Assembly (NCBI GenBank): GCA_014859835.1
Contig: JACZKW010000047.1
Span: 68,794 to 132,793, forward strand
Reading direction: 5' to 3'
Source: Thermoplasmata archaeon
GTDB taxonomy: Archaea > Thermoplasmatota > Thermoplasmata > UBA10834
DNA: 64,000 nt
This document shows positions 34,387 through 53,397 of the stretch, piece after piece. The notes below the pieces were generated by a model. It ran no database searches. It was not told where the DNA came from and worked only from the letters and a program-made list of their open reading frames with translations. The position numbers were made by a program, and so were the translations under genes. Position 1 is the stretch's first letter, and the number at the start of each line of letters is the position of its first letter.

Positions 34387-34838
34387 TCACCACCTCTGAT
34401 CGGAGATGGTCCAAGCTCGTTTATCGTGTTCGTGAATTCGGTCATGGTCTTCTGGAACTTCTCGCCCTCACCGGCCGAGATCCATTCCAACTGCAGTCTG
34501 TCCGTGTCATAACCGAACTGCTGTATGAGCATCTTCAGCAAGGCTATCCTCCTGCGGGTCCTGTAATTTCCACCTATGTAGTGGCAGTCCGCTGGGTGAC
34601 AGCCTGCGACCAGGATGCCGTCCGCGCCCCTCTCGAACGCCCTGAGGACGAACTCGGGGTCGACCCTGGCGGAGCACATGACCCTGATGACCCTGAAATG
34701 AGGTGGCATCTGGAGCCTGCTGACTCCTGCCAGGTCCGCTCCTGCGTACGAGCACCAGTTGCAGCAGAACACTATGATCTTCGGCTCGAATCCGTGGTCC
34801 GTCCCGGTCTTCTGGTGGTTGTGAGCATCTGAACTCAT
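34383..34838 (-). CDS. mvhD: MvhD (methyl-viologen-reducing hydrogenase delta subunit), [2Fe-2S] carrier
   Basis: …KIIVFCCNWCSYAGADLAGVSRLQMP…RVMCSARVDP…GCHPADCHYIGGN…. Confidence 0.85.
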   Translation of the reverse strand: MSSDAHNHQKTGTDHGFEPKIIVFCCNWCSYAGADLAGVSRLQMPPHFRVIRVMCSARVDPEFVLRAFERGADGILVAGCHPADCHYIGGNYRTRRRIALLKMLIQQFGYDTDRLQLEWISAGEGEKFQKTMTEFTNTINELGPSPIRGGE

Positions 34839-37800
34839 TGCTTCACCTCCTGCTTCTTCGGTTCCTCAACAAGCGCAGCATCGATCATAGCGAGGATCTG
34901 CTCATCCCTGAAACCCTTCTGGGTGAGTGCGCCAGCGGGACATGCTCCCACACAGGCGCCGCAACCCTTGCACAGACCGACATTGACATCGACGATCTTC
35001 TTGTCCTTGATCTTCTTGTTATCGATGATCTCGAGCGCCTTGTACTCGCATGTGGGCACGCAGATGCCGCAACCGTCGCAATATTGCTCGTCGACGCTCG
35101 CGACTATCCCCTCGGCTTCCAGCGTGGTCTTGGATAAGATCGTCATGGCCCTGGCGACTGCGCCAAGTGCTTGGGCGATGCTCTCATCCACGAACTTCGG
35201 CGAATGAGCTATACCGGCGAGATAGACGCCTTCGGTGGCGAAGTCGATCGGCCTCAGCTTCATGTGCGCCTCCAGGAAGAAACCTTCCTTGGTTATAGGG
35301 ACCTTCAGCATGGGCGCGAGTTCCTCGGAGCCTTCCTCTGGCCTGGTCCCAGATGCGAGGACAAGGCAGTCTGGCCTCAGAACGACCTCCTTGCCGGTGT
35401 CCTCGTCTATCAATCTCACTTCGATCTTGCCGCCCTTGTCCTCTACGACGGGCTTCTTCTCATCGTCGAACCGTATGAAGGTCACGCCCTTCTGCGCGGC
35501 CTCCTTGTAGTACTTCTCTCTGAAGCCATAGGTCCTGATGTCCCTGTAGAGCACGTACACCTTCGCGTTCGGGTCCTTGTCCTTGATCTTATTGGCCGCG
35601 GTCATAGTGCCCGTGCAACAGACGCGGGAACAGTTCGGGAACTTGTCCTCCCTGGACCCGACGCACTGTATGAACACATAGGAATCGCCCTTGACCTCTC
35701 CCTTCTTCATCTTGCCCTTGAACTCGAGGAGCGTCATCACGTTGGCGTTCTTGCCATATAGGTACTCTCCCTCGGGCTTGTACTCCCGTCCGCCGACGGC
35801 GACTACGACGACTCCATGCTCCATCTCGGAGCCGTCCGTGAGCTGCGTCTTGAAGTTGCCGACATATCCGTCGATGGTCTTTACGGTCGTTCCAAGGTGT
35901 AGCGTGATGTTCTTGTTCGCCCTGATCTCCTGATCGACCTTCTTGAGGTACTCGTCAGGGTCGTCCCCGGACGGGAGATAATGAAGCTTCCTCAGGTTTC
36001 CTCCGAGTTCCTTCTCCCTCTCCACCAGGTGCACCTTGATGCCCTGCTTGGCGAGTTCTAGAGCGGATACCATGCCGCTCACTCCACCACCTATGACGAG
36101 AGCGTCCTGGTTCACGTTAATTATGAGGTTCTCGAGCGGTTCCAGCAACCTCGACTTCGCAAGAGCCATCCGCACAAGGGCCTTGGCCTTCTTCGTGGCG
36201 GCCTTAGGCTCGTGCATGTGTATCCAAGAGCACTGGTCCCTGATGTTCGCCATCTCGAAAAGGTACGCGTTGAGGCCAGCCTCCCTGATGGTGTTCTGGA
36301 ATAGTGGTTCATGCGTCCTCGGAGTGCAGCTCGCGACGACCACTCTGTTCAGGTCGTGCTCCTTGACCTTCTCCTTGATCTTCTCCTGAGCATCGGCGGA
36401 ACACGTGTACAAGTTCTGTTCGGCGTACACCACGTTGGGCAGGGTCTTCGCGTATTCCATGACCTCTGGCACATTGACGACGCCGCCGATGTTGATGCCA
36501 CAGTGGCAGATGAACACACCTACCCTGGGCTCCTTGCCGACCACATCGATCTCCTTCGGGTACACCTTTTTGGTGATCAAGGTGTTCCTTGAGGCCGTTA
36601 TCTCTGTGCCCGCCTTGGCCGCGGCACCGCTCGCTTCGGCCACGGTCATCGGGATATCCTTCGGTGACGAGAACGCGCCGCTGACGAATATGCCCGGTCT
36701 GGATGTCTCGACAGGTGAGAACGCGCCTGTCTGGCAGAACCCGTCGTCGTTCAGCCTGAACTTCATGACACGGCTCAGATTCTCCGCGTCCGCGGGCGGT
36801 GTCAGACCGACAGCCAGCACGACCAGGCCGAACTCCTCTTCCTTCGGTTCGCCGTTCTCGACGTACTTGATCATCAGATTCTTCGTCTTCGGGTTCTCGA
36901 CGACCGCCGCTGCCCTGGATCGGACGAATCTTATGCCGTATTCGTTCTTGGCGCGGTTGTAGTAATCATCGAACTCCTTTCCGAAGGCCCTCATGTCCAT
37001 GAAGAATATCGAGGGCTTGATGTTCCCTCCGTGTTCCTTGGCTATGATCGCCTCCTTGATCGAGTACATGCAACATACGCTGGAGCAGTACTCGTTCCCG
37101 CAGTGCTCGTCCCTGGAGCCGACGCACTGTATGAACGCGATCTTCTCGGGTATGTCACCGTCCGATGGCCTGAGCACGGTCCCGAAGTACGGGCCGGTCG
37201 CGCTCAGCATCCTCTCGAACTCTATGCTCGTGACGACGTTCGGGTACACGCCATAACCATACTCTGGCTTCAGGCGCGCGTTGAACTCGTCGAAGCCGGG
37301 AGATACGATGATCGACCCGACCTTGATCTCGAAGACCTTCTCCTTCTGATCGTAATCGACTGCCTTGGCCTTGCACTCCTCTGCGCAGATCCCGCAACCT
37401 ATGCACTTCTCGGGGTCTATCGAGTAGATCAGAGGTACGGCCTGCGGGTATGCGACATAGATCGCCTTCCTGATCTTCGTTCCCTCGTTGTACTCGTCCA
37501 CGGCCTCGATCGGACATTTCTGGGCGCAGCTTCCGCAGCCAGTACACTTCGTAGGATCGACCCTGAAAGCCCTCTGCCTCACCGTGACGGTGAAGTTGCC
37601 CGCCTGGCCATCCACGATGGCGATGTCCGCGTTCGTGATCAACTGTATGTTGTGGTGCCTGCCCGCGGCGACCAGCTTGGGCGCCATTATACACATGGCG
37701 CAGTCGTTCGTCGGGAAGGTCTTATCGAGCTGGGCCATGGTGCCGCCTATGCTCGCCTTCTTCTCAACCAGATATACTCTGTATCCGGAATCGGCAAGGT

Positions 37801-37876
37801 CCAATGCGGACTGGAGACCTGATATGCCTCCTCCTACAACCATGACCGCGCCGACCTTGTCAGTAGTAGCCATCAC
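34835..37876 (-). CDS. hdrA: Long (1013 aa) tandem-fused HdrA: N-terminally truncated HdrA-like FAD/ferredoxin unit fused to a complete HdrA
   Basis: Two Rossmann motifs (VMVVGGGISGLQSALDLA and ALVIGGGVSGMVSALELA). There is an internal HdrA N-domain Cys cluster (…VGVFICHCGINIGG…ASCTPRTHEP…DQCSWIH…), multiple 4Fe-4S motifs and a C-terminal 2x[4Fe-4S]. Confidence 0.85.
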   Translation of the reverse strand: MMATTDKVGAVMVVGGGISGLQSALDLADSGYRVYLVEKKASIGGTMAQLDKTFPTNDCAMCIMAPKLVAAGRHHNIQLITNADIAIVDGQAGNFTVTVRQRAFRVDPTKCTGCGSCAQKCPIEAVDEYNEGTKIRKAIYVAYPQAVPLIYSIDPEKCIGCGICAEECKAKAVDYDQKEKVFEIKVGSIIVSPGFDEFNARLKPEYGYGVYPNVVTSIEFERMLSATGPYFGTVLRPSDGDIPEKIAFIQCVGSRDEHCGNEYCSSVCCMYSIKEAIIAKEHGGNIKPSIFFMDMRAFGKEFDDYYNRAKNEYGIRFVRSRAAAVVENPKTKNLMIKYVENGEPKEEEFGLVVLAVGLTPPADAENLSRVMKFRLNDDGFCQTGAFSPVETSRPGIFVSGAFSSPKDIPMTVAEASGAAAKAGTEITASRNTLITKKVYPKEIDVVGKEPRVGVFICHCGINIGGVVNVPEVMEYAKTLPNVVYAEQNLYTCSADAQEKIKEKVKEHDLNRVVVASCTPRTHEPLFQNTIREAGLNAYLFEMANIRDQCSWIHMHEPKAATKKAKALVRMALAKSRLLEPLENLIINVNQDALVIGGGVSGMVSALELAKQGIKVHLVEREKELGGNLRKLHYLPSGDDPDEYLKKVDQEIRANKNITLHLGTTVKTIDGYVGNFKTQLTDGSEMEHGVVVVAVGGREYKPEGEYLYGKNANVMTLLEFKGKMKKGEVKGDSYVFIQCVGSREDKFPNCSRVCCTGTMTAANKIKDKDPNAKVYVLYRDIRTYGFREKYYKEAAQKGVTFIRFDDEKKPVVEDKGGKIEVRLIDEDTGKEVVLRPDCLVLASGTRPEEGSEELAPMLKVPITKEGFFLEAHMKLRPIDFATEGVYLAGIAHSPKFVDESIAQALGAVARAMTILSKTTLEAEGIVASVDEQYCDGCGICVPTCEYKALEIIDNKKIKDKKIVDVNVGLCKGCGACVGACPAGALTQKGFRDEQILAMIDAALVEEPKKQEVKQ

Positions 37877-38706
37877 TGCTCACCTCCGATCTCTATGGTC
37901 TTGTATGTGGGGGTGAATCCCTCCGGGTGTTCCATGGCGATCAGACTGTTTTGCCTGAGCAGGACTATGTGTCTGAGCACCTTGTCCGTAGGGACCTCCA
38001 TCATCTCCCCGAGCTCCTTAACGGACCTCGCTTTGGTCCTGGACAGCTCGAGTATGAGGCTCCTCTCGAACTCATCGGAGGTGGCCTCTGTGATTATCTT
38101 CTCTATCTCCTCCGGGTCCAGCTTGTTGTCGTAGACATTGCCCTTGCCGACAAGGTTCAGTTCCTTGCCCACAAGCGCCTTCAATCTGAATGTCTCGGAC
38201 GCCATGTCCGCGGCCGCGACCCTTGACATCAACCGTTCATCCTTCTTGACCTTGTTCGGTCCCAAGGCCTTCACGGTCTCCGTGAACTCCGTCACGACCT
38301 TCGAGAACTTCTCTCCTTCTGATGCGGACACCCATTCGAGCCTGAGTCTCTCGGGCGCTATGCCACATTCTTTGAGCAGCTTCTTCATGAGGTTCACGCG
38401 CTTCTCCGTGTAGTAGTTCCCGCTGATGTAATGGCAGTCTCCTATGTGGCAGCCGCCGAGCAGGATGCCATCGGCACCAGCCTTGAAGATGTCCAACACC
38501 AGATGCGGACTGATCCTCGTAGAGCACATCACCCTGACCGGGCGTATGTTGGTCGGGTACTGGTACCTGCTCACTCCACACAGGTCCGCTCCTGCATACG
38601 AGCACCAGTTGCAGAGGAACCCGATAATCTTCGGTTCCCACTCGCTGTCATGCTTCTTCTCTAGTGCGTGCGTCTCGTGATGAGTAGTGTGATGCTTTTC
38701 CGTCAT
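37873..38706 (-). CDS. MvhD-domain protein with about 130-aa C-terminal winged-helix-like extension
   Basis: The N-terminus (…KIIGFLCNWCSYAGADLCGVSRYQYP…GCHIGDCHYISGN…) is MvhD. The C-terminal extension is homologous to ORF 33997-34386. Confidence 0.75.
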   Translation of the reverse strand: MTEKHHTTHHETHALEKKHDSEWEPKIIGFLCNWCSYAGADLCGVSRYQYPTNIRPVRVMCSTRISPHLVLDIFKAGADGILLGGCHIGDCHYISGNYYTEKRVNLMKKLLKECGIAPERLRLEWVSASEGEKFSKVVTEFTETVKALGPNKVKKDERLMSRVAAADMASETFRLKALVGKELNLVGKGNVYDNKLDPEEIEKIITEATSDEFERSLILELSRTKARSVKELGEMMEVPTDKVLRHIVLLRQNSLIAMEHPEGFTPTYKTIEIGGEQ

Positions 38707-38709
38707 CTC

Positions 38710-40590
38710 TCACACCTCCTCATCGAGAGCAGCTCTGGCTTCAGCGAGCAGCTGAGCATCAGTGTAATTCGTCATCGTTATCGCACCCTCCGGGCAGGTG
38801 GCGCCGCATGCACCGCAACCCTTGCACGCTGCGGCTATGGCCTCAACCAGGCCTTTGTCGTTCTTTCTCAACGCGCCATACGGGCAGACAGCGATACAAG
38901 TACCACAGCCAGTGCACTTGGTCTCGTCCACGACTGATGTCAGCGCCTCGGCCTGCACATACCCTTTCGCCATCGGTATGGCTGCCCTGGATGCCGCCGC
39001 GGCACCCTGTATGGCGCATTCTGAGATGTCTGCCGGGCCCTTGCAGGTCCCGCAGACATATATGCCATCGGTCGCGAAGTCCACCGGCCTGAGCTTGACA
39101 TGCGCTTCCAGGAAGAACCCTTCCTGGCCCAGCGGGACCTTGAGCAGCTTCGACAGGTCTCCAGCATCGGGCTGAGCGACCAACGGGGTCGACAATATGA
39201 CCATGTCGACCGGCATGGTCCTCTCAAGCTTGAGCGTCTCATGGAAGTAAGTCACCTTCAACTGGTTGTCTTCCATGAACACCTTGGGGAGGTTCTCGGT
39301 CGTGTATCTCACGAACTTGACCCTCTTCTCCCTGGCCTTGTTGTAGTTGAGCTCATGCTCAACTCCGTATGCCATGACGTCCCTGTTGAACACGGTGACC
39401 TCGATCTTCTCGGACGGGCCTAGCTTCACCTCTTCGGCATCGCTCTCGCCCTCGGTTCCTCGGCTGCGTCTCCTGCGCCTGCGCTCGAGGATCTCGTCCG
39501 TCGCCTTCTTCTCGACCGGGATCTTGTCGACTACGGTGCCCTGCTTCTCGGCCAGTCCTAGCATGTTCTCGTAGTTGTCGACGATATTGATCGCGTTCTT
39601 GATCGCCACATTGCAGCAGATCCTGGAGCAGTAGCTGAGCTTCTGTCCCCTTGACCCGACACATTGTACGAACGCGACGCTCTTCAGTTTCGGGAGGGTC
39701 TTCTTCTTGCACAGTATCTCGAACTCAGTCAGGGTGACCACGTTCGGGAACTGGTTGTAGCCGTACAATCCCTCGGGGACGTACTCGAGCGCGCCCGTCG
39801 CCACTATGATCGTGCCGACCTTGATCTTCTTGTCCTCGGCGCCCTTGTGGCCAATCACGACCTCGTAGTTCCCTATGAATCCTTCAACGCTCTTCAGCAT
39901 CGAGTTGGTGTATACTGTTATGTTCTTGTGTTCGCTGACCTTCTTGATCAATGGGACGATCGTCTCCTCGGCTCCCTTGTCTGTGACATAAAGGTTGTTC
40001 AGGAGCTTGACGAACCCTCCGAGTTCGCCGTCCCTCTCGACGAGGTGCACGGGGAATCCCATGTCCGCCATGGACAGGGCAGCGGACATCCCGCTGACTC
40101 CGCCACCCACGACCAGGGCGACCGACTCCACATCGACCCTGACCTCTTCCTGGGGCACGAGCAACCTTGCCCGGGAAACGCCCATCCTTATGAGGTCCTT
40201 GGCCTTGACCGTCGCCTTGTCCTTCTCCTTCATGTGGACCCAGGAACAGTGTTCACGTATGTTCACGAATGTAAACAGGTACTTGTTCAATCCAGCGGAC
40301 TCGCAGGTCGCCTGGAACAGCGGCGCGTGCGTCCTCGGAGTGCAGCTCGCCACTATGACCCTGTTCAGGTTGTGCTTCCTGATGGCCTCCCTTATGCTGC
40401 TGAGGCCGTCCTCGGCACAGGTGTACAGGTTGTCATTCGCGTAGACCACATCGGGCAAGGTCTTCGCGTACTCCGCGACGGTCGGAACATCGACGAACCC
40501 GCCTATGTTCGAACCGCAGTGGCAGACGAACACGCCTATCCTCGGCTTATCACTCTGGATCGCTTCCTTGTTCTCGGCCATCTGAATCAT
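38710..40590 (-). CDS. hdrA: HdrA-like protein (complete-HdrA unit; second half of a split double HdrA)
   Basis: …IGVFVCHCGSNIGGFVD…ASCTPRTHAP…EHCSWVH…, FAD motif ALVVGGGVSGMSAALSMA, C-terminal CTGCGTCIAVCP…CKGCGACGATCP. Contains an Arg-rich/acidic insertion ERRRRRRSRGTEGESDAEE. Confidence 0.8.
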   Translation of the reverse strand: MIQMAENKEAIQSDKPRIGVFVCHCGSNIGGFVDVPTVAEYAKTLPDVVYANDNLYTCAEDGLSSIREAIRKHNLNRVIVASCTPRTHAPLFQATCESAGLNKYLFTFVNIREHCSWVHMKEKDKATVKAKDLIRMGVSRARLLVPQEEVRVDVESVALVVGGGVSGMSAALSMADMGFPVHLVERDGELGGFVKLLNNLYVTDKGAEETIVPLIKKVSEHKNITVYTNSMLKSVEGFIGNYEVVIGHKGAEDKKIKVGTIIVATGALEYVPEGLYGYNQFPNVVTLTEFEILCKKKTLPKLKSVAFVQCVGSRGQKLSYCSRICCNVAIKNAINIVDNYENMLGLAEKQGTVVDKIPVEKKATDEILERRRRRRSRGTEGESDAEEVKLGPSEKIEVTVFNRDVMAYGVEHELNYNKAREKRVKFVRYTTENLPKVFMEDNQLKVTYFHETLKLERTMPVDMVILSTPLVAQPDAGDLSKLLKVPLGQEGFFLEAHVKLRPVDFATDGIYVCGTCKGPADISECAIQGAAAASRAAIPMAKGYVQAEALTSVVDETKCTGCGTCIAVCPYGALRKNDKGLVEAIAAACKGCGACGATCPEGAITMTNYTDAQLLAEARAALDEEV

Positions 40591-42096: not shown

Positions 42097-42519
42097 CTAC
42101 TTCGCAATCACCTTCTTGACGTCAGCGCCCTTCTCGATCTCGGTCACCTTGACCTTGAATGGGACTTTCTTCTTCGCCTGTGCGTCGGCTCTGGCGAACC
42201 TCTGGCAGTTCGGATACGTGCACGGGGAGCACTTCTCATCCTTGCACGAGAGTTCCACGAGCAGCATCCTCTCTCTGGTGTCCTCCGGCTTCGTAACGGG
42301 CTTCCGGATCTCGAACATCTTGGACATCTTCGTCTCATATGGCTTCTTCTTGGGTTCGTACCTGGCGAACCTCTGACAGTTCGGGTACGTACACGGAGAA
42401 CACTTGGTGTCCTTGCAGGACAGTTCTATCAGCACGAACCTGTCGCCTACGTTCTTCGGCGAGTTCTCTCCCTTGCCCCCCTTCGTATCTGCCTTCTTGG
42501 TCGTGGTTTTTGGAATCAT
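42097..42519 (-). CDS. Small Lys-rich protein with duplicated C-x4-C-x2-C-x4-C motif (putative metal-binding), unknown function
   Basis: Two about 60-aa repeats, each containing L(I/V)ELSCKD(T/E)KCSPCTYPNCQRFAR. The repeats are also recognisable at DNA level with mostly synonymous differences. Confidence 0.5.
   Translation of the reverse strand: MIPKTTTKKADTKGGKGENSPKNVGDRFVLIELSCKDTKCSPCTYPNCQRFARYEPKKKPYETKMSKMFEIRKPVTKPEDTRERMLLVELSCKDEKCSPCTYPNCQRFARADAQAKKKVPFKVKVTEIEKGADVKKVIAK
42191..42425. repeat. Intragenic direct repeat (two about 65-nt copies, 42191-42255 and 42361-42425) encoding the duplicated Cys motif
   Basis: ctggcgaacctctgRcagttcggRtacgtRcacggRgaRcactt…ccttgcaSgaSagttc occurs twice, 170 nt apart. 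Confidence 0.6.
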
Positions 42520-42545: not shown

Positions 42546-44141
42546 CTACTCGAGCGAGTCAGCGATCGCGACAGTCAGGTCCTTTATCTTTATATCTATC
42601 TGCTCCTTGGGTACCAGGGTCTTGTTCTCCTGGGCGCACTTCAGATGGATGAGGCACTTGTAGCAGCCGGTCACGAGGCACTCGGCCCCCGTCTTCTTCG
42701 CCTCCTTCAGCCTCTCTACCTGCAACCTACGCGAAGTCTCGTCGCAGGTGGCCCACGCGCTCACACCACAGCATAATGCTTTGTCGCGGGTGTTCTCCAT
42801 CTCGACAATCTCGGTACCCTCCGAGGCTTTCAGGGCGTTCCTGGGCTGGTCGTAGATGTCCATGTGCCTTCCGAGCCTACACGAATCCTGGAAGGTCAGC
42901 TTCTGGGCGTTCTTCTTCAGTTTGAGCTTGCCTTCCTTGATCAGGTCGTCTATCAGCTGCGAGATGTGCACCATCTCGAAGTCCGCATCCCCCATCAGCT
43001 CTTGATAGTCGAGGTCGAAGGTGCGCAGGCATTCCGGGCACGAGAAAACGACCTTCTTGGCCCCAGAGGCCTTTATGACCTCGAGGTTCTTCTTCATCAG
43101 CTTCTGCATGGCCGCCTCGTCCCCGGTCCAGTTGAGGTCGTGCCCGCAGCAGACCTCATCGTTACTGACGACCGGGATAATACCCCCCTTATTCATTATC
43201 TTTACTGCAGCCTGGGGTATGCCAGAGAGGTCCAATTCCCGGTCCTTGAATATCGAGTCGAAGTATACCGCGCACCCCGTGAAGAAGAACACGTCACCCT
43301 TCTCGGCGATCTTGATATCATCCGTGACCCATCCCAGCCGGTTCTGCTTGAAGTCTCCGTGGGCCATGACCCGCATGACCCCTTGCATCAATCCGCCCTG
43401 GGAGCATACAGGCACGTTATCCAGCGAGCTCGCCTCGGTCCTCAAGCCCCTGATGAATCCCGAATAATCGACCTTGTACGGGCACATCGAATTGCATTGC
43501 TCACAGGTGACGCAGGTCCAGATGTCCTTGTCCGTCGAGAGCGTCTGCATCTGCCCCTCCGTAGCCTTAAGGACTATGGTCCTGGGCGCGAACTCCGTAT
43601 TGTACTTGGCGACCGGGCATACGGTCGTACACTTGCCGCACTCTACACAGTCGAACGCGCCCGTATCCTCGATCAGAGCATCTATCCTCTGCTTCAGGGT
43701 GATCGGGTCCTTGGTTGCCTTAGGGGCCTTCGGCATCGGGTTCGGCCCGAGCTTCCTGATCTGTTCTGTGAACTCCTTCATGGTCGCAGCGAACTTCTGC
43801 CCCTCTGATGCGGATATCCATTCCAATCGCATCCTGTCCTTGCCGATCCCGAGCCTGTCGAGGAGTTCCTTGACCGATTCCATGCGCTTCTCGGCCTCGA
43901 CGTTCCCGGAGATGTAATGACAATCGCCGATGTGGCATCCCGCAATCAGGATACCATCCGCGCCCAGTTCCAGTGCCCTGAGTATGAAGTATGGTTCAAC
44001 CCTCCCTGAGCACATGACCCTGATGATCCTGGCGTTGGGGGGATACTGCATCCTGCTCACGCCTGCCAGGTCCGCTCCTGCGTACGAGCACCAGTTGCAG
44101 CAGAAGGCCACTATGTTCGGCTCGAACTCCTTGCTGCTCAA
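42546..44141 (-). CDS. MvhD-HdrC-HdrB three-domain fusion (MvhD + HdrD-like)
   Basis: The N-terminus (…NIVAFCCNWCSYAGADLAGVSRMQYP…GCHIGDCHYISGN…) is MvhD. Two 4Fe-4S motifs follow (CVECGKCTTVCP and CVTCEQCNSMCP), then two CCG domains (…FFFTGCAVYF…CCGHDLNW…SCPEC… and …FQDSCRLGRH…LCCGVSAW…GCYKC…). Confidence 0.8.
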   Translation of the reverse strand: MSSKEFEPNIVAFCCNWCSYAGADLAGVSRMQYPPNARIIRVMCSGRVEPYFILRALELGADGILIAGCHIGDCHYISGNVEAEKRMESVKELLDRLGIGKDRMRLEWISASEGQKFAATMKEFTEQIRKLGPNPMPKAPKATKDPITLKQRIDALIEDTGAFDCVECGKCTTVCPVAKYNTEFAPRTIVLKATEGQMQTLSTDKDIWTCVTCEQCNSMCPYKVDYSGFIRGLRTEASSLDNVPVCSQGGLMQGVMRVMAHGDFKQNRLGWVTDDIKIAEKGDVFFFTGCAVYFDSIFKDRELDLSGIPQAAVKIMNKGGIIPVVSNDEVCCGHDLNWTGDEAAMQKLMKKNLEVIKASGAKKVVFSCPECLRTFDLDYQELMGDADFEMVHISQLIDDLIKEGKLKLKKNAQKLTFQDSCRLGRHMDIYDQPRNALKASEGTEIVEMENTRDKALCCGVSAWATCDETSRRLQVERLKEAKKTGAECLVTGCYKCLIHLKCAQENKTLVPKEQIDIKIKDLTVAIADSLE

Positions 44142-47100
44142 ACCTTCACCTCCTCGTCCTTGTCAGTCAAGAGGGCCTCGAGCATGGTCATTATCTGTTC
44201 GGACTTGAAGTGCTTGGGACTGATCGCCCGCGCACAGCATGCGACCGCGCAGGAGCCACAGCCCTTGCAGAGCGCCTCGTTAATCCTGGATTTGATCACT
44301 CCTGGGGATATCTCCTCGAGTCTCGGGGCGCCGTACTCGCACACATCCTCGCATCTGCCGCAGGCTATGCACCTCTCCTCGTTGACGACGCTCACGACCC
44401 CTTCGGCCTCTATGAACGGTTTGGACAGGACGGTGTTCACCCTTGCAGCTGCGGCCAGCGCCTGCGATATGCTCTCGTCGATCAATCTCGGTGAATGCGC
44501 GAGCCCGCAGAGGAAGATCCCGTCCGTCGCGAAATCGACCGGTCTCAGCTTCATGTGTGCCTCCAGGAAGAACCCCTCCTTGGTCAGCGGCACCTTCAGC
44601 AGCTGGGCAAGGTCCTTGTTGTCCGGGTTCGGCCGGACCGCGGCGTTTAGAACGAGATAGTCCGTTTTGATCGTCACGGTCTGCTCTATGAACTGTTCGT
44701 CGATCTCCACGACGATGTCCCCATTCGTCGCAACGACTCTGGGTGGAGATTCGGGATCGTATCGGAGGAAGATGACGCCAAGCCTGGCCGCTTCGTTGTA
44801 ATTCTCCTCTGCGAAACCGTAGGTCCTGATGTCTCTGTAGAGCACGAAGACATTCGTCTCGGGGTGCTCCTTCTTGATCTTCATCGCGTTCGCCATGGCG
44901 GTCGAACAGCATATCCTGGAGCAGTTCGGATACTCGTCGTTCCTCGAACCGACGCACTGGATTATCACGACATTGTCCGCCTTGAAATCTTTCTCGGCAA
45001 GCAGCTCTCCCAGATCCGTCTGCCTGATGACCTTCGGGTTCTTCCCGAACATGTACTCCACCGGCTCGTACTCCACACCACCGGTGGCCACGACGATGGC
45101 GCCGTGCTTGAACTTCTCTCCGCTCTTGAGAGTGGTCTCGAAATTGCCGATATATCCCTTTATCTCCGAGGCGGTCTCGTTGAGGTAGGTCTTGATGTTC
45201 TTGTGTTCTGCTATTTCCTTCTCGAGCTGTTCGAAAGTCTTCTGGGGGTCGACTCCCGAGAGTGTATGATGTATCCGTCTCAGATGCCCACCCAGCTGCT
45301 TCTCCTTTTCCACCAGGTGCACCTCGAAGCCGGAATTCGCTATCTCTAGGGTCGCGGTCATGCCGCTCAGACCTCCGCCGATGACCAGCGCTGACGGTGT
45401 GACGGGTATCTTGGGTTGAGGTAGAGGCTCAAGCATCGCCGCTTTCGCTACCGCCATGCGCACAAGGTCCTTCGCTTTCGCGGTCGCTTTCACCGGTTCC
45501 AACCGGTGCACCCAAGAGCACTGGTCCCTGATGTTGGCCATCTCGAAAAGGTACTTGTTCAGCCCCGCCTCCTTGACCGTGTTCTGGAACAGCGGCTCGT
45601 GAGTCCTCGGCGTACAGCTCGCGACGACCACCCTGTTCAGGTCGTGTTTCTCGACGACCTCCTTGATCTTCTTCTGAGTGTCCTGTGAGCATGTGTAAAG
45701 GTTACGTTCGACGTAGACCACGCCAGGCAAGGTCGCTGCATATTCGACTACCTCCGGCACGTTCACCACAGAACCGATGTTTATGCCGCAATGGCAGACG
45801 AACACGCCTATCCTGGGTTCCTTGCCGGAGACATCCCTCTCCTGTGGATACTCCTTCTTGGTGACCAGCTTGCCCCGCTCATCCGACAGTAACGCTGCCA
45901 CCTTCCCCGCAGCGCCGCTGGCTTGAGCGATCGAGTCTGGAATGTCCTTCGGGCCAGAGAACGCGCCGCACACGAATATCCCGGGGACGGATGTCGACAC
46001 AGGGGTCAGATCGTCAGTCTCGCAGAACCCGAACTTGTTCAGGTTGAGTCCGAATATCTTTGCCATATTGCCAGTGGATTCCGGGGGCCTCGCGCCCGCA
46101 GAGAGCACGACCAGGTCGAACACCTCCTCTCGAATGTCCGGACCCTCGAGATAGCTGAGCATGAGGTTGTTCGTCTCCGGGTCCTCCTGGACCTTTGATA
46201 TACGGTTGTTCCTCAGGACCCTCACGCCGTATTCGTTCTCCGCTCTCATCAGGTATTCCTCGAACTCCTTGCCGAAAGCCCGAGTGTCCATGAAGAATAT
46301 CGCAGTGTCCAGCCCCTGGACATGCTCCTTGCCTATGACCGCCTGCTTCAGGGCGGCCATGCAACAGTATGATGAACAATAGGTATTGGATGTCTGCGCG
46401 TCCCTCGAGCCGACACACTGTATGAACGCGATCTTCTTGGGCACATCCCCATCCGAAGGCCGGATCACGTGTCCCTCCGTCGGACCAGACGCGCTGAGCA
46501 TCCTCTCGAACTCTATGTTCGAGAGCACATTATGGAATACGCCGTGCCCGTACTCGATCTTCTTCGACGAATCGTAGACGTCGTATCCGGGGCTCAGGAT
46601 GATGGCGCCCACCTCGATCATCTCTTCCTTGTCCAGCTCATCGGAGTAATTGATCGCCTTCGCCTCGCAGAATCTGTCACAGACCCCGCATCCGATGCAC
46701 AGTCCCTTGTCTATAGTGTATACTAAGGGCACAGCCTGCGGGAACGGGACATAGATCGCCTTTGCCGGTGCCAAGTCCCTATCAAAGGCGTTGGCCCCTT
46801 CGATCGGGCAGTGTTCGGCGCACACTCCGCAGCCAGTGCACTTCTCTTCGATTATGAACCTGGACCTACGCGATAGCTTGACCTTGAAATCACCCGTTTT
46901 GCCCTCGATGCCCTTGAGCTCCGCGTTGGTGATCATCGTGATGTTCTCATGCCTCCCTGTCGCGACCAGCTTCGGGGAGATGATGCACATCGAGCAATCG
47001 TTCGTGGGGAAGGTCTTGTCCAACTGTGCCATCGTGCCGCCTATGCTGAGCCCGGATTCGAGTATGTACACCTTGAACCCGGAATCGGCCAGATCCAGCG

Positions 47101-47164
47101 CCGCCTGCATCCCTGCGGGACCGCCTCCGACCACGAGCACGGCCCCAACTTTTCTATCTGCCAT
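44138..47164 (-). CDS. hdrA: Long (1008 aa) tandem-fused HdrA, paralog of 34835-37876
   Basis: VLVVGGGPAGMQAALDLA at the N-terminus. An internal HdrA N-domain (…IGVFVCHCGINIGSVVN…ASCTPRTHEP…DQCSWVH…) and a second FAD motif ALVIGGGLSGMTATLEIA. Collinear with the other long HdrA. Confidence 0.85.
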   Translation of the reverse strand: MADRKVGAVLVVGGGPAGMQAALDLADSGFKVYILESGLSIGGTMAQLDKTFPTNDCSMCIISPKLVATGRHENITMITNAELKGIEGKTGDFKVKLSRRSRFIIEEKCTGCGVCAEHCPIEGANAFDRDLAPAKAIYVPFPQAVPLVYTIDKGLCIGCGVCDRFCEAKAINYSDELDKEEMIEVGAIILSPGYDVYDSSKKIEYGHGVFHNVLSNIEFERMLSASGPTEGHVIRPSDGDVPKKIAFIQCVGSRDAQTSNTYCSSYCCMAALKQAVIGKEHVQGLDTAIFFMDTRAFGKEFEEYLMRAENEYGVRVLRNNRISKVQEDPETNNLMLSYLEGPDIREEVFDLVVLSAGARPPESTGNMAKIFGLNLNKFGFCETDDLTPVSTSVPGIFVCGAFSGPKDIPDSIAQASGAAGKVAALLSDERGKLVTKKEYPQERDVSGKEPRIGVFVCHCGINIGSVVNVPEVVEYAATLPGVVYVERNLYTCSQDTQKKIKEVVEKHDLNRVVVASCTPRTHEPLFQNTVKEAGLNKYLFEMANIRDQCSWVHRLEPVKATAKAKDLVRMAVAKAAMLEPLPQPKIPVTPSALVIGGGLSGMTATLEIANSGFEVHLVEKEKQLGGHLRRIHHTLSGVDPQKTFEQLEKEIAEHKNIKTYLNETASEIKGYIGNFETTLKSGEKFKHGAIVVATGGVEYEPVEYMFGKNPKVIRQTDLGELLAEKDFKADNVVIIQCVGSRNDEYPNCSRICCSTAMANAMKIKKEHPETNVFVLYRDIRTYGFAEENYNEAARLGVIFLRYDPESPPRVVATNGDIVVEIDEQFIEQTVTIKTDYLVLNAAVRPNPDNKDLAQLLKVPLTKEGFFLEAHMKLRPVDFATDGIFLCGLAHSPRLIDESISQALAAAARVNTVLSKPFIEAEGVVSVVNEERCIACGRCEDVCEYGAPRLEEISPGVIKSRINEALCKGCGSCAVACCARAISPKHFKSEQIMTMLEALLTDKDEEVKV

Positions 47165-47165: not shown

Positions 47166-47615
47166 TCAAACGTCCTCCTCGCACAACGGTCCGAGCCTCT
47201 CCAGCTCTGCCACCATCTTCTTTACGACGTCTGCGAACTTCTGTCCCTCTGAGCCAGCGATCCATTCTATTCGGAATCTCTGGTCCTCTATGCCCGCGTC
47301 TTCGAGGAATTCTGACAGGAAGTCTCCTCTCATCGCCGCCTTCTCGTTGCCGTTTATGTAATGGCAATCCGCTGGATGGCATCCTGCGACGATCACACCG
47401 TCCGCACCCAGCTCGAATGCCTTCAGCACGAAGGCCGGATCGACTCTTCCCGAGCACATGACTCTGATTATCCTGACATTTGACGGATACTGCAATCTGC
47501 TCACGCCCGCCAGGTCAGCTCCTGCATACGAGCACCAGTTGCAGCAGAATGCGATGATCTTGGGCTCGTGAGTCTTCTCTGTGCTCTGAGCATCCTTGGT
47601 GACTGGTCCGCTCAT
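47166..47615 (-). CDS. mvhD: MvhD; track ORF extends upstream to 47951 across the hdrB 3' end, but an ATG at 47615 with a GGGGGG SD follows the hdrB stop
   Basis: …KIIAFCCNWCSYAGADLAGVSRLQYP…RVMCSGRVDP…GCHPADCHYINGN…. Confidence 0.8.
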   Translation of the reverse strand: MSGPVTKDAQSTEKTHEPKIIAFCCNWCSYAGADLAGVSRLQYPSNVRIIRVMCSGRVDPAFVLKAFELGADGVIVAGCHPADCHYINGNEKAAMRGDFLSEFLEDAGIEDQRFRIEWIAGSEGQKFADVVKKMVAELERLGPLCEEDV

Positions 47616-47617: not shown

Positions 47618-48535
47618 TCACGCCCCCCTGAGCTTCCTCAGCAGTGAATGGGCGGACACGTGATGCGTATCGAAGCCCAGCGAGATCGGGTCTATGCCCA
47701 TCGAGAGTGCCTGGAGCTGTGATACATGCATGACCGGGATGCCATCCTTCGTGAAGGTCTTCTGCGCGTTGTCGAACTGAAGGAGGCAGAACGGGCATCC
47801 AGTGACGATGCAGTCTGCGCCGACTGCCGAAATGTTCTTGCACTTGTCCTCCGTGAGCGAGTTGGCGAGATCGACGACGTGGGATCTCACACCACCTCCC
47901 GCGCCGCAGCAATCCAACTTGTCCTCGTAATCCACGGATGTCGCGCCGCACGCCTCGACGATCTGGTCGAGGAGCACGGGGTTGTTCGGATCATCTATCG
48001 TTTGATTCTCCGTCGGTCGCAGGTAATGACATCCATAATGCACGGCCACGGTGATGTTATTCAGGGGTTTCTTGACCTTGCTGGCTATGGCCTCCAGACC
48101 TATGTCTCTGGCCATCACATCGATATAGTGGCGTACCTTGACTGGTTCGAAAATCTTCCTCCTTCCCTCGGTCTTCCTGGGCACGCCAGTATATTTCTTA
48201 CCTATCTGGGCGAGCACACGGTTCACCCTGCCCATGGCCTTCGGATCCTGGAGGTACTCCGTGGCTTTGAGGAGGGAGGTGAGGCAGCCGTTGCATACGG
48301 TCATGATGTCCCTTCGCTCCTCCTGGGCAAGTACGAGGTTCCTCGCGGCCAGCAGAAGCCATGTGTTCTTGTCGGTGGAGTAGAATATCCCTGGGACCGG
48401 GCAGCAAGAGAACTCTGGCATGTCCATCACGTCGAGGTCGAAGCCCTCTTTTCCACAGACCCACCTCACTGCATATTCGATGCCAGGATATCTGTTCGGT
48501 ATGACGCAACCGAAGAAGTACGCGTAAGGGGTCAT
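47618..48535 (-). CDS. hdrB: Heterodisulfide reductase subunit B
   Basis: Two CCG domains (…FFGCVIP…FSCCPVPG… and …HYGCHYL…LDCCGAGGG…GCPFC…). Confidence 0.9.
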   Translation of the reverse strand: MTPYAYFFGCVIPNRYPGIEYAVRWVCGKEGFDLDVMDMPEFSCCPVPGIFYSTDKNTWLLLAARNLVLAQEERRDIMTVCNGCLTSLLKATEYLQDPKAMGRVNRVLAQIGKKYTGVPRKTEGRRKIFEPVKVRHYIDVMARDIGLEAIASKVKKPLNNITVAVHYGCHYLRPTENQTIDDPNNPVLLDQIVEACGATSVDYEDKLDCCGAGGGVRSHVVDLANSLTEDKCKNISAVGADCIVTGCPFCLLQFDNAQKTFTKDGIPVMHVSQLQALSMGIDPISLGFDTHHVSAHSLLRKLRGA

Positions 48536-49116
48536 GCCTTGACCTCCTCTTCGATGCCTATGAGTTTGTCGTACTTCGACGCGTGTATCAGGACATTGAT
48601 CTCCCGCAATACCTTCTTGTAACTCGGATCGTTCGAATGCACCTGCTCCAGGCCAAGCTCGCTTCGGATCTTGTTGATCTCCTCGTCCGGTTTGACGCTC
48701 TGGCCATACCTCACGAGGTTCGTTGCGGCTACCTTGATGAACGGAGGTATGACTCCTTCCCTGACTGCTATGTGTCTAAGTGCGATCATCACCTCGGCCG
48801 GATTGATGTCGGCCGGGCAATGCTCGTAGCATCTGTAACAGGTCGCGCATACCCATCGGGTGCTGAGGGTGTAGCTCTTGAGTCCGAACTGGCAGTACTT
48901 GATGATGCTCCTTGTCTTGTAATCTATCTTCAGGCTTATCGGGCATACACCAGTGCAGTTTCCGCATTGGAGGCAGGTCATGACGTCCTTTCCGCCGTAC
49001 TTCTTGATTTCCTTCGCGAAATTTCGATCCAGCTGGCTCTCGTCGATGACCTTCTCCTCGACGAGTTTCTCCTTGAGTCCACTAATGAAGGTCTTCTCGA
49101 CTTCTCCGATGATCAC
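48532..49116 (-). CDS. hdrC: Heterodisulfide reductase subunit C
   Basis: CLQCGNCTGVCP and CATCYRCYEHCP (2x[4Fe-4S]). Confidence 0.9.
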   Translation of the reverse strand: MIIGEVEKTFISGLKEKLVEEKVIDESQLDRNFAKEIKKYGGKDVMTCLQCGNCTGVCPISLKIDYKTRSIIKYCQFGLKSYTLSTRWVCATCYRCYEHCPADINPAEVMIALRHIAVREGVIPPFIKVAATNLVRYGQSVKPDEEINKIRSELGLEQVHSNDPSYKKVLREINVLIHASKYDKLIGIEEEVKA

Positions 49117-52764: not shown

Positions 52765-53131
52765 CCGGGACCACCAACCGCAAGTTCTTGATAGTGCATT
52801 CTCGACCATTGACGATCCTGGCAGGCCCTCTGCACTTGGGGCACTCTAGAATCGGCACGATCCTATGTGGGGAATCCTCGGACGGTGACATCTCTCCCTT
52901 GAATCCGCAATCACACTCGATCGTGCCCTTGACATGGTTTATTGTCAGAGTGGAACCCTGAAGAATTGTGTCCTTCGAGAGGATCTCGTAGGAGAACTTC
53001 AATTGCTCCTCACCGAGCATCGTGAAATCGCCGAGATCCAGGAACACTTCCTCCACCTTGACGGCATTCCATTTCTTGGATTCCTCGATAAGCCCATCGA
53101 TGATCTGACTCATCACGGAGAATTCGTGCAT
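52757..53131 (-). CDS. hypA: Hydrogenase nickel-insertion protein HypA
   Basis: MHEFSVMSQIIDGL… (N-terminal MHE Ni-binding motif) and zinc-finger CDCG…CPKC. Confidence 0.8.
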   Translation of the reverse strand: MHEFSVMSQIIDGLIEESKKWNAVKVEEVFLDLGDFTMLGEEQLKFSYEILSKDTILQGSTLTINHVKGTIECDCGFKGEMSPSEDSPHRIVPILECPKCRGPARIVNGRECTIKNLRLVVPDV

Positions 53132-53134
53132 GGT

Positions 53135-53362: not shown

Positions 53363-53397
53363 CTGGCGGTCAGTATGCGGGGTCCGTTGATAAAGTT

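What the first reader, a model, noticed from the sequence alone, without database searches (positions are those of the whole stretch)
42546..44141. MvhD fused to an HdrC-HdrB (HdrD-like) module in a single polypeptide
Sequence evidence: an N-terminal MvhD domain (CCNWCSYAGADLAGV…GCHIGDCHY), then 2x[4Fe-4S] (CVECGKCTTVCP and CVTCEQCNSMCP), then two CCG domains (CCGHDLNW and LCCGVSAW). Established: HdrD is an HdrC+HdrB fusion and normally pairs with membrane HdrE, while MvhD normally docks to HdrA. Inference: a direct MvhD-HdrD fusion would bring the disulfide-reducing active site and the [2Fe-2S] conduit into one chain. Together with the upstream long HdrA, it may form a two-subunit bifurcating heterodisulfide reductase.
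Basis: partly seen in the sequence, partly recalled or inferred. Interest (0 to 1): 0.6.

Follow-up and report, generated by a model that had tools for sequence, protein, structure and literature searches.

The report
MvhD fused to HdrD-like reductase
One gene of an uncultured, probably non-methanogenic Thermoplasmata archaeon joins a small iron-sulfur adaptor (MvhD) to an HdrD-like iron-sulfur module; the fusion is real and common in metagenomes, most likely a partner of the flavoprotein encoded just upstream, and a modest variation on known heterodisulfide-reductase machinery.

Summary
Window 42546-44141 (-) is one uninterrupted 531-codon ORF with a full MvhD/FlpD domain, two ferredoxin-type [4Fe-4S] motifs and two complete CCG motifs. 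Independent assemblies and more than 100 homologues of the same length rule out a missed stop.

The fusion is not rare. It fills two Thermoplasmata clades and recurs in Actinomycetota and Chloroflexota. In Syntrophobacterales, Dehalococcoidia and WOR-3 the same two parts are adjacent separate genes downstream of an hdrA.

The gene is translationally coupled to a 1008-aa tandem HdrA. Only the N-terminal half of that HdrA keeps the Lys/Glu residues that mark the bifurcating flavin site, plus the inserted ferredoxin domain. Its C-terminal half carries the domains through which MvhD feeds electrons in solved complexes. One MvhD and one HdrD per HdrA therefore fits, as in BamDEF of class II benzoyl-CoA reductase.

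A pairing with the upstream HdrA is likely. "Two-subunit" and "heterodisulfide" are unproven: the operon also encodes HdrACB, further HdrA/MvhD copies and MvhAG. The related order UBA10834 is reported as non-methanogenic, and the closest solved relative of the C-terminal module is mycobacterial EtfD.

This is a new variant of a known kind, of modest interest.

The parts
42546..44141 (-). mvhD::hdrD fusion gene, 531 aa, TTG start overlapping the stop of the upstream hdrA
43734..44132 (-). MvhD/FlpD domain (aa 4-136). All six Cys of the solved MvhD are kept: C14, C15, C18, C44, C69, C74.
   Evidence: Pfam FlpD E 1.1e-57. 5odc_D E 1.6e-54 with a residue-by-residue alignment. Foldseek shows 62% identity and TM 0.83-0.88 normalised to MvhD.
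43470..43652 (-). HdrC-like ferredoxin domain (aa 164-224) with two CX2CX2CX3C motifs at 165-175 and 210-220
   Evidence: Pfam Fer4_8/17. HdrC chains 5odc_C and 8rvu_c at E 5e-10 to 8e-13. Motif scan.
43029..43274 (-). First CCG unit (aa 290-371): C290, C331, C332, C368, C371
   Evidence: Pfam CCG, motif scan. Four of the Cys are invariant in 55 homologues; C371 is at least 90% conserved.
42654..42881 (-). Second CCG unit (aa 421-496): C421, C457, C458, C493, C496
   Evidence: Pfam CCG best stretch 416-501, motif scan. All five Cys are invariant in 55 homologues.
44138..47164 (-). Tandem (type II) HdrA, 1008 aa. The N-half holds a TrxR-like domain with an inserted 2x[4Fe-4S] ferredoxin domain, NDCSMC, E220 and K272. 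[quoted passage not shown]
42097..42519 (-). orf140: small Lys-rich protein with two repeats of ELSCKDxKCxPCTYPNCQRF (8 invariant Cys). It lies 26 nt downstream of the fusion.
   Evidence: The Pfam PF04060 'FeS' hit is weak (E 0.0028).
47166..47615 (-). Stand-alone mvhD (about 149 aa counted from the internal Met), between hdrB and the tandem hdrA
   Evidence: Pfam FlpD E 1.6e-54; translation
47618..48535 (-). hdrB, near-canonical (TIGR03288 328.8 bits against a cut-off of 345)
48532..49116 (-). hdrC
49113..51206 (-). hdrA, single-unit form, 697 aa
40587..41885 (-). HdrA-like, 432 aa. It resembles the N-half of the tandem form (NDCSIC, CCMHSTK).
38710..40590 (-). HdrA-like, 626 aa. It resembles the C-half: N-terminal cluster domain plus C-terminal ferredoxin domain.
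37873..38706 (-). Long MvhD, 277 aa (FlpD at 27-149 plus an extension of about 125 aa with no Pfam match)
34835..37876 (-). Second tandem HdrA, 1013 aa
34383..34838 (-). mvhD, 151 aa
31462..33995 (-). mvhG (32982-33995) and mvhA (31462-32985), small and large subunits of a [NiFe] hydrogenase
   Evidence: homologues in related loci
30886..31404 (-). HycI-type hydrogenase maturation protease
51676..56266 (-). hypB, hypF, hypC and hypD hydrogenase maturation genes upstream of the hdr operon

Best explanation
The gene encodes one polypeptide that combines two normally separate partners of HdrA. The first is the [2Fe-2S] adaptor MvhD. In solved complexes MvhD docks on HdrA and passes electrons in from a donor module. 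The second is a soluble HdrD-type module: an HdrC-like part with two cubane [4Fe-4S] clusters, and an HdrB-like part with two CCG sites for non-cubane [4Fe-4S] clusters. In HdrABC this module takes the high-potential electron and reduces a disulfide.

The proposed partner is the tandem HdrA encoded immediately upstream. That HdrA is an asymmetric fused pseudo-dimer with one bifurcating-type flavin site. It would therefore have one input port (the C-terminal ferredoxin domain), one low-potential exit (the inserted ferredoxin domain) and one high-potential exit.

One MvhD and one HdrD per HdrA is therefore the expected stoichiometry, and the fusion fixes it. The resulting core would resemble BamD-BamE-BamF of class II benzoyl-CoA reductase.

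In this organism the likely electron donor is H2, through the MvhAG hydrogenase encoded downstream. The acceptors would be ferredoxin and an unidentified disulfide or protein partner.

Shown: the domain content, the intact cluster-binding cysteines, the gene coupling, the conserved synteny, the split and fused forms, and the asymmetry of the HdrA. Inferred: physical complex formation, the electron path, bifurcation, the H2 donor and the acceptor.
For: - Domains and ligands. All ten CCG cysteines and both ferredoxin motifs are conserved in 55 homologues.
- Coupling: the fusion's TTG start overlaps the hdrA stop.
- Synteny: the order hdrA -> mvhD -> hdrD recurs in archaea and several bacterial phyla. 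The parts are true fusions in Thermoplasmata, Actinomycetota (L017, L037) and Chloroflexota (L035). They are adjacent genes with 4-nt overlaps in Dehalococcoidia and Syntrophobacterales. This split/fused pattern argues that the two parts act in one complex.
- A neighbour-joining tree of the HdrD part places the fused forms in at least three separate groups.
- In Thermoplasmata clade 2, hdrA plus the fusion form a stand-alone pair.
- The N-half of the tandem HdrA keeps NDCSMC (the Cys197 equivalent), E220, K272 and the inserted ferredoxin domain. [quoted passage not shown]
- The same 'complementary loss' is described for tandem HdrA of ANME archaea (PMC9012536) and for BamE. In BamE only TrxR1 bifurcates, BamD takes the high-potential electron and BamF is the MvhD-like adaptor, at 1:1:1 (bioRxiv 10.64898/2026.04.10.717634).
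- Each HdrA unit in the cluster is followed by an mvhD, and MvhG/MvhA plus hyp genes flank it.
Against: - No complex was modelled or measured. The tools return no coordinates, so the distance from the [2Fe-2S] site to any HdrA or HdrC-like cluster is unknown.
- The fusion is nearly end-to-end. MvhD aligns to aa 4-136 and HdrC residue 33 aligns to aa 164. The tether is therefore short, and I could not check whether it spans the MvhD and HdrC sites as arranged in 5ODC.
- The AF2 monomer has pTM 0.85. That hints that the MvhD domain packs on the HdrD module, which could mean a direct MvhD-to-HdrC path instead.
- The partner HdrA in clade 2 has Gly at the Lys site and no inserted ferredoxin domain. 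Bifurcation is thus not a general property of HdrA plus fusion pairs.
- The operon holds a second complete Hdr set, so partner assignment from gene order alone is not certain.
- The substrate is unknown.
Confidence: 0.5

Rival explanations
1. The partner (tandem HdrA) is the same, but the HdrD-like module is not a disulfide reductase. It would be an electron-transfer port that hands the high-potential electron to a protein carrier. Candidates are an ETF-like protein or the small eight-cysteine protein orf140 encoded just downstream. BamD does this with ETF, and EtfD works the same way in the opposite direction.
For: - The nearest solved relative of aa 194-510 is M. smegmatis EtfD (9ojn): E 3.5e-31 by sequence, 2.9e-41 by profile, 1.3e-15 by fold. 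HdrB chains reach only E 0.002-0.05 by profile.
- The BCRII preprint reports that BamD has a blocked heterodisulfide site and passes electrons to ETF.
- The order of the closest named relatives is reported to lack mcr and most methanogenesis markers.
- orf140 is strictly conserved next to the fusion in clade 1.
Against: - Both CCG motifs are complete and conserved here. By contrast, the distal cluster is reported as disrupted in most BamD homologues.
- The best NCBIfam match is TfrB, a thiol-dependent enzyme, although below its cut-off.
- No ETF genes lie in the window.
- orf140 is absent from clade 2 and from the bacterial loci.
Confidence: 0.25
2. The enzyme is a non-bifurcating short circuit. 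The MvhD domain takes electrons from MvhAG (or another donor) and passes them within the same chain to the HdrC-like clusters and the CCG site. HdrA flavin chemistry plays no part, giving a simple H2:disulfide oxidoreductase.
For: - The AF2 monomer has pTM 0.85, and the junction scores pLDDT 70-79 rather than being disordered. That is compatible with a packed two-module protein.
- The clade-2 partner HdrA lacks the Lys hallmark and the inserted ferredoxin domain.
- MvhG/MvhA are encoded in the cluster.
Against: - The gene always follows an hdrA, here with a 4-nt overlap.
- The upstream tandem HdrA keeps the bifurcation hallmarks.
- In every solved complex found here, MvhD is a subunit of an HdrA-containing assembly. 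That MvhD docks on HdrA itself comes from the literature.
- mvhG/mvhA sit about 8.5 kb away, directly behind a different mvhD.
Confidence: 0.12
3. The fusion is an artefact: a frameshift or assembly error merged separate mvhD and hdrD genes.
For: Split forms exist in relatives. At least one long-read MAG locus (L014) looks like compensating frameshifts that mimic a fusion.
Against: An identical protein is called on an independent assembly, and a 98% identical copy on another. More than 100 homologues of 530-550 aa come from NCBI, JGI, ENA and Logan sources. About 20 clusters at the 50% identity level show single end-to-end alignments.
Confidence: 0.01

Closest known systems
MvhAGD-HdrABC H2:heterodisulfide/ferredoxin oxidoreductase of methanogens (PDB 5ODC; also 8RVU, 7BKB, 9SW2)
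   Same: The MvhD domain is 62% identical over the Foldseek alignment to 5odc_D and keeps all six Cys. The HdrC-like ferredoxin domain and the HdrB-like fold are present (TM 0.65-0.69 normalised to HdrB). HdrA, MvhG and MvhA are encoded nearby.
   Different: MvhD, HdrC and HdrB are three chains there and one chain here. The partner HdrA here is a 1008-aa fused pseudo-dimer rather than a homodimer of about 650-aa chains. Sequence similarity to HdrB is marginal (E 0.002-0.05 by profile). The organism probably has no CoM-S-S-CoB.
BamD-BamE-BamF module of class II benzoyl-CoA reductase (Geobacter metallireducens; bioRxiv 10.64898/2026.04.10.717634)
   Same: Both have a tandem HdrA with a single bifurcating flavin in the N-terminal TrxR domain, one HdrD-like subunit taking the high-potential electron, and one MvhD-like adaptor, at 1:1:1.
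   Different: No BamB/BamC tungsten module and no BamGHI genes lie in the window. The gene order differs (bamD-E-F there, hdrA-mvhD::hdrD here). BamD and BamF are separate chains. BamD's distal cluster is degenerate, whereas both CCG motifs are intact here. No sequence comparison with Bam proteins could be run, because none are in the PDB copy searched.
HdrD of HdrDE (Methanosarcina) and soluble HdrD-like proteins in hdrA clusters (ANME, Desulfobacterium autotrophicum HdrD1-4)
   Same: The HdrC and HdrB parts are fused in one chain with two ferredoxin motifs and two CCG units. Soluble HdrD-like genes next to tandem hdrA and mvhD are already described (PMC9012536, PMC12054007, PMC2702500).
   Different: No HdrE or cytochrome b gene is in the window. 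The N-terminal MvhD domain is not part of any HdrD described in the papers I could search.
HdrA2 / type Ia HdrA (HdrA::MvhD fusion, Methanosarcina acetivorans, Archaeoglobus)
   Same: Both fuse MvhD covalently to another Hdr subunit. The MvhD domain here scores best against the MvhD part of the NCBIfam HdrA2 model (E 3.8e-60, model positions 644-774).
   Different: There MvhD is fused to the C-terminus of HdrA. Here it is fused to the N-terminus of the HdrCB module.
EtfD of Mycobacterium smegmatis (PDB 9OJN)
   Same: EtfD is the closest solved structure and sequence for aa ~194-510.
   Different: The deposited EtfD sequence is 1042 aa (742 residues in the solved chain) and has no MvhD domain. 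Its membrane anchoring and its role as an ETF:menaquinone oxidoreductase are from my own knowledge and were not tested here. Identity is only 25%.

Membership tests
MvhD / FlpD (PF02662) | Full-length match to the family profile above the curated cut-off | tested here: met
   193.8 bits against 22.3, profile positions 1-123 of 123
MvhD / FlpD (PF02662) | Conserved cysteine set around the [2Fe-2S] site | tested here: met
   C14, C15, C18, C44, C69 and C74 align with the cysteines of 5odc_D. C15, C18, C44, C69 and C74 are invariant in 55 homologues.
MvhD / FlpD (PF02662) | MvhD fold | tested here: met
   Foldseek TM 0.83-0.88 normalised to MvhD chains, rmsd 2.7 A; model pLDDT 81.9
MvhD / FlpD (PF02662) | Binds a [2Fe-2S] cluster and docks on HdrA | not testable with these tools
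   Only gene adjacency to hdrA is shown
HdrD (fused HdrC+HdrB) of the CCG superfamily | Two CX2CX2CX3C ferredoxin motifs followed by two CCG units, each C-Xn-CCG-Xm-C-X2-C | tested here: met
   conserved in homologues
HdrD (fused HdrC+HdrB) of the CCG superfamily | HdrB-like fold of the C-terminal part | tested here: met
   5odc_B and 8rwn_B at E 1.5e-7 to 5e-7, TM 0.65-0.69 normalised to HdrB; EtfD at E 1.3e-15
HdrDE membrane heterodisulfide reductase | Adjacent hdrE (membrane cytochrome b) partner | tested here: not met
   None of the ORFs of 150 aa or more scanned across the window has a cytochrome b or NarI-like domain; several gave no Pfam match
HdrDE / HdrABC CoM-S-S-CoB reductase (function) | Reduces CoM-S-S-CoB; the organism makes CoM and CoB and has Mcr | not testable with these tools
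   No mcr is in the window. The order of the closest named relatives is reported as non-methanogenic. The rest of the genome was not available.
NCBIfam equivalogs TfrB, LdhH, GlpC, GlcF, HdrC, DsrK, TmcB | Score at or above the curated cut-off | tested here: not met
   The best is TfrB at 133.9 bits against 385. All others are also below their cut-offs.
Bifurcating HdrA-type complex (partner test on the upstream HdrA) | FAD-site Lys409 and Glu356 equivalents, Cys197 equivalent, inserted and C-terminal ferredoxin domains | tested here: met
   The N-half has K272, E220, C60 and the inserted ferredoxin domain. The C-half has the N-terminal and C-terminal domains but Ala at the Lys site.
Class II benzoyl-CoA reductase (BamBCDEFGHI) | BamB tungsten AOR-type subunit and BamGHI NADH module in the cluster | tested here: not met
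   No such domains appear among the cluster genes. Only the BamDEF-like logic is shared.

The most novel reading that the evidence does not exclude
The fusion would mark a minimal 1:1 bifurcating core: an asymmetric tandem HdrA plus MvhD::HdrD. In non-methanogenic Thermoplasmata this core would work without CoM-S-S-CoB. It would use H2 through MvhAG to reduce ferredoxin while delivering the high-potential electron to a lineage-specific acceptor. That acceptor could be the eight-cysteine protein orf140 encoded next to it. The core might act inside a multi-HdrA super-complex that chains two bifurcation steps, as proposed for ANME clusters and shown for class II benzoyl-CoA reductase.
Probability: 0.15. 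Interest if true: 0.65.

Novelty: new variant of a known kind. Interest (0 to 1): 0.35.

Why it matters
Hdr-type electron bifurcation outside methanogens is widespread, but its substrates and subunit wiring are mostly unknown.

A covalent MvhD-HdrD link is natural split/fused-gene evidence that the input adaptor and the high-potential output module sit on the same HdrA unit at 1:1. This matches what the recent benzoyl-CoA reductase structure shows for BamDEF.

The system offers a simpler two-gene target for biochemistry, namely the stand-alone hdrA + fusion pairs of clade 2. It also supplies a candidate partner protein (orf140) for testing what these enzymes reduce in archaea that make no methane.

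It does not change the picture of how Hdr enzymes work. The architecture is already abundant in public databases under generic names.

Tried and rejected
- Literature: searches for 'MvhD-HdrD', 'HdrD-MvhD', 'MvhD-HdrCB' and similar strings found nothing. Broader searches and seven papers read gave no explicit description of this fusion. The archaeal fusion/fission survey mentions Hdr subunit fusions only in general, and its supplements do not list MvhD. The BBA review by Appel et al. 2021 is not held. The library is incomplete, so absence is weak evidence.
- Bacterial 'full-length' tblastn hits looked at first like a very wide spread of the fusion. Reading the frames showed that most are adjacent separate genes. 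L014, an apparent Sec-containing fusion, shows a garbled stretch consistent with compensating frameshifts, so I discounted it.
- Desulfobacterium autotrophicum 'HdrF' was checked as a remembered candidate for this architecture. It is a membrane HdrD-like protein, not an MvhD fusion.
- The afdb50 fold library was unavailable, so I could not look for cultured organisms with the architecture.
- The tRNA scan of the window found none and did not help identify the organism.
- A complex model of HdrA plus the fusion could not be run. The tool takes single chains only and has a 1200-aa limit. No coordinates are returned, so domain packing in the AF2 model could not be measured.
Full report
**1. Observation**

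Window 42546-44141 on the minus strand is one ORF of 531 codons. It starts at a TTG that overlaps the TGA stop of the upstream gene (TTGA) and is preceded by GGAGGTGA.

Pfam finds three kinds of domain:
- a complete FlpD/MvhD domain at aa 10-132 (E 1.1e-57);
- a dicluster ferredoxin domain at aa 164-225;
- two CCG stretches (E 2.4e-24).

A motif scan gives two CX2CX2CX3C motifs (165-175, 210-220). It also gives two full C-Xn-CCG-Xm-C-X2-C units (290-371, 421-496).

The ORF is not an assembly artefact:
- The identical 531-aa protein is called on an independent NCBI assembly (L001).
- A 98% identical copy lies on a third contig (L002).
- The 120 best database hits (56-100% identity) mostly span 530-550 aa (three shorter, partial hits) and all share the architecture. 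They come from NCBI, JGI, ENA and Logan.

**2. Source and setting**

Named relatives are all Thermoplasmata MAGs. They include the isolate UBA10834 (80% identity, L012) and RBG_16_62_10 (P0117, 58%). Both MAGs belong to the order UBA10834. A comparative study found that order to lack mcr and most methanogenesis markers while 'retaining hdrABCD' (bioRxiv 10.1101/2020.03.09.984617).

The fusion sits in a long minus-strand cluster. In order of transcription:
- hypB, hypF, hypC, hypD;
- hdrA (697 aa), hdrC, hdrB, mvhD;
- tandem hdrA (1008 aa), mvhD::hdrD, orf140;
- a 211-nt gap;
- hdrA-like (432 aa), hdrA-like (626 aa), long mvhD (277 aa);
- tandem hdrA (1013 aa), mvhD (151 aa);
- a 387-nt gap;
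- mvhG, mvhA, hycI-type protease.

From hdrA697 to orf140 the genes overlap or are at most 26 nt apart. Each HdrA unit is followed by an mvhD. No cytochrome b/HdrE-like gene, mcr or ETF gene is in the window.

**3. What the parts are**

The MvhD domain:
- It aligns end to end with solved MvhD chains (5odc_D, E 1.6e-54) and keeps all six cysteines.
- In an AlphaFold2 model (pLDDT 81.9, pTM 0.85), Foldseek finds 62% identity to 5odc_D. It superposes on MvhD chains at TM 0.83-0.88.

The C-terminal 370 residues:
- They contain an HdrC-like ferredoxin domain (HdrC chains E 5e-10 to 8e-13).
- They have an HdrB-like fold (TM 0.65-0.69 normalised to HdrB).
- Sequence similarity to methanogen HdrB is marginal (profile E 0.002-0.05).
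- The closest solved relative is M. smegmatis EtfD (9ojn; E 3.5e-31 by sequence, 2.9e-41 by profile, 1.3e-15 by fold).

No NCBIfam equivalog cut-off is reached. The best is TfrB at 133.9 bits against 385. The module therefore belongs to the broad HdrD/TfrB/GlpC/EtfD group of CCG proteins. Its substrate cannot be read from homology.

Of the ten CCG cysteines, nine are invariant in 55 homologues and C371 is at least 90% conserved. This differs from BamD, whose distal cluster is reported as degenerate in most homologues.

**4. Distribution, and fused versus split forms**

- Among cluster representatives at 50% identity, about 20 give single end-to-end alignments to the fusion. Many more are stand-alone HdrD-like proteins of 370-400 aa at 35-58% identity. 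A few are larger fusions, for example P0199 of 1146 aa.
- A scan of one genome per species found the pair in Thermoplasmata and 'Methanomassiliicoccales' MAGs. It also found it in Syntrophobacterales, Dehalococcoidia/Chloroflexota, Actinomycetota and WOR-3.
- Reading the frames shows true fusions in the two Thermoplasmata clades, in Actinomycetota (L017, L037) and in one Chloroflexota locus (L035).
- The parts are adjacent separate genes in Syntrophobacterales, Dehalococcoidia, WOR-3 and some 'Methanomassiliicoccales' MAGs. Where the junction was read (Dehalococcoidia, Syntrophobacterales) they overlap by 4 nt.
- A rough neighbour-joining tree of the HdrD part places the fused forms in at least three separate groups.

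The pair mvhD-hdrD downstream of an hdrA is thus an old, conserved unit that has been fused or split repeatedly. This is classical evidence that the two products act in one complex.

**5. The partner**

The upstream 1008-aa protein is a tandem ('type II') HdrA.

Alignment to solved HdrA chains and of its two halves to each other shows:
- N-half: a TrxR-like domain with the inserted 2x[4Fe-4S] ferredoxin domain. It has NDCSMC (equivalent to Cys194/Cys197 of the 5ODC HdrA), E220 (Glu356) and K272 (Lys409).
- C-half: the HdrA N-terminal cluster domain (442-603). [quoted passage not shown]

Two earlier descriptions match this layout:
- The 'complementary loss' described for tandem HdrA of ANME archaea (PMC9012536).
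- BamE, where only the N-terminal TrxR domain bifurcates. BamD takes the high-potential electron, the inserted ferredoxin domain carries the low-potential one, and the MvhD-like BamF is the input adaptor, at 1:1:1 (bioRxiv 10.64898/2026.04.10.717634).

One MvhD and one HdrD per tandem HdrA is therefore the expected stoichiometry, and a fusion fixes it.

**6. Support and limits for the two-subunit idea**

In a second Thermoplasmata clade (about 58% identical; L005-L011) the fusion follows a 593-aa HdrA-like gene. In the loci whose neighbours I annotated (L006, L009), the flanking genes are unrelated: aminotransferase, flavodoxin, CBS proteins, amidohydrolase. A self-contained HdrA + MvhD::HdrD enzyme is thus plausible in principle.

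That HdrA, however, has Gly at the Lys site, no inserted ferredoxin domain and no CxCGxNI motif. It is unlikely to bifurcate.

In the window itself the fusion shares an operon with a near-canonical HdrACB-MvhD set (HdrB reaches 328.8 bits against the TIGR03288 cut-off of 345). It also lies next to three more HdrA-like genes. A larger assembly is at least as likely as a heterodimer.

**7. Mechanism proposed**

- Electrons from H2 would enter through MvhAG and the MvhD [2Fe-2S] site.
- They would pass to the C-terminal ferredoxin domain of the tandem HdrA and reach the single bifurcating-type FAD.
- The other would pass through the HdrC-like clusters of the same fusion chain to the two non-cubane clusters.

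Steps shown: the domains, the ligands, the gene coupling, the synteny and the HdrA asymmetry. Steps inferred: the physical complex, the path, bifurcation, the donor and the acceptor. I put this explanation at about 0.5.

**8. Rivals**

- (a) Same complex, but the HdrD-like module is a port to a protein carrier rather than a disulfide reductase. EtfD being the closest structure, BamD passing electrons to ETF, the non-methanogenic lineage and the conserved orf140 favour this. The intact CCG motifs and the lack of ETF genes nearby count against it. About 0.25.
- (b) A non-bifurcating short circuit from MvhD to HdrC within one chain. The high pTM of the monomer model is compatible with it. Constant adjacency to hdrA counts against it. 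About 0.12.
- (c) An artefact. Rejected.

**9. Novelty**

Covalent fusions of Hdr subunits are documented: HdrA::MvhD, tandem HdrA and HdrC::HdrB (PMC12054007, PMC11237513, PMC9012536, PMC2702500). HdrD-like genes in hdrA clusters are also documented.

I found no paper that describes MvhD fused to HdrD, but the library is incomplete. Automatic annotation already labels these proteins 'Fe-S oxidoreductase/coenzyme F420-reducing hydrogenase delta subunit', 'heterodisulfide reductase subunit D' or 'hydrogenase iron-sulfur subunit'.

The finding is therefore a real, common, uncharacterised domain arrangement of known parts: a new variant of a known kind. Its main value is as evidence on subunit wiring and as a lead to the unknown acceptor. 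Interest 0.35.

Noticed in passing
window 42097-42519 (-): orf140 is a 140-aa Lys-rich protein made of two repeats of ELSCKDxKCxPCTYPNCQRF (CX4CX2CX4C; eight invariant Cys). It lies 26 nt downstream of the fusion. Its family has 189 clusters, all 'hypothetical', and all named ones are Thermoplasmata. The only family hint is a weak Pfam PF04060 'FeS' hit. It is conserved after the fusion in clade-1 loci (L002-4, L012, L015, L016, L018) and absent from clade 2 and from bacteria. It could be a small two-cluster carrier or a thiol/disulfide partner.
   Followed up: partly
L013, L014, L021, L023-L028 (around locus position 10200 in those with the match at 10001): Desulfobacterota and related mvhD genes upstream of hdrD carry an in-frame TGA exactly at the position of Cys69 (G*HIGDCHY). 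This implies selenocysteine at that site.
   Followed up: partly
window 44138-47164 (-) and 34835-37876 (-): Both tandem HdrA proteins are asymmetric. The Lys409-equivalent is kept only in the N-half (CCMAALK, CCMYSIK). The C-half has Ala or Thr (CCSTAMA, CCTGTMT). A 2025 survey of methane-metabolising archaea states that both halves of type II HdrA keep the key residues, so these Thermoplasmata copies differ.
   Followed up: partly
window 37873-38706 (-): This is a long MvhD of 277 aa, with a FlpD domain at 27-149 plus about 125 residues that have no Pfam match. The trio HdrA432-HdrA626-long MvhD is conserved in Thermoplasmata and in Syntrophobacterales loci (MvhD of about 235 aa). It recalls the extended MvhD-like BamF.
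   Followed up: no
L005-L011 (e.g. L006 8221-11623): A second Thermoplasmata clade carries a stand-alone bicistron of hdrA-like (593 aa) plus the mvhD::hdrD fusion. In L006 and L009, whose neighbours were annotated, the flanking genes are unrelated. This HdrA has Gly at the Lys409 site, no inserted ferredoxin domain and no CxCGxNI motif. The MvhD domain of this clade reads TCTWC and GCLIDNCHY instead of CCNWC and GCHIGDCHY.
   Followed up: partly
proteins P0199 (1146 aa), P0134 (864 aa), P0180 (947 aa): These are larger proteins in which the MvhD-HdrD or HdrD part is the C-terminal segment of a longer chain. P0199 aligns to query 35-525 at its residues 640-1138 and may be an HdrA-MvhD-HdrD triple fusion.
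   Followed up: no
protein P0078 (alignment A1): This homologue has CPEG in place of the CPEC of the first CCG unit, and so lacks one of the ten CCG cysteines.
   Followed up: no
window 40587-41885 and 38710-40590 (-): HdrA432 looks like the N-half of a tandem HdrA and HdrA626 like the C-half. The pair may be a split version of the tandem form. They overlap by 4 nt.
   Followed up: no
window 51239-51586 (-): This 115-aa ORF lies between hypD and hdrA697 and has no Pfam or NCBIfam match. It may not be a real gene.
   Followed up: no
window 1-30881 and 56892-62957: The rest of the window is housekeeping. It holds two large TPR proteins (1139-5595), a Cdc48-type AAA ATPase (5914-8136), 2-oxoacid:ferredoxin oxidoreductase subunits (8355-11329) and a class II (Asp/Lys/Asn-type) tRNA synthetase (12274-13758). 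It also holds a histidine biosynthesis operon (14929-21416), NAD synthase, a response-regulator/PAS protein and a hypE-like AIRS protein (29763-30881, + strand) next to the hydrogenase protease.
   Followed up: no
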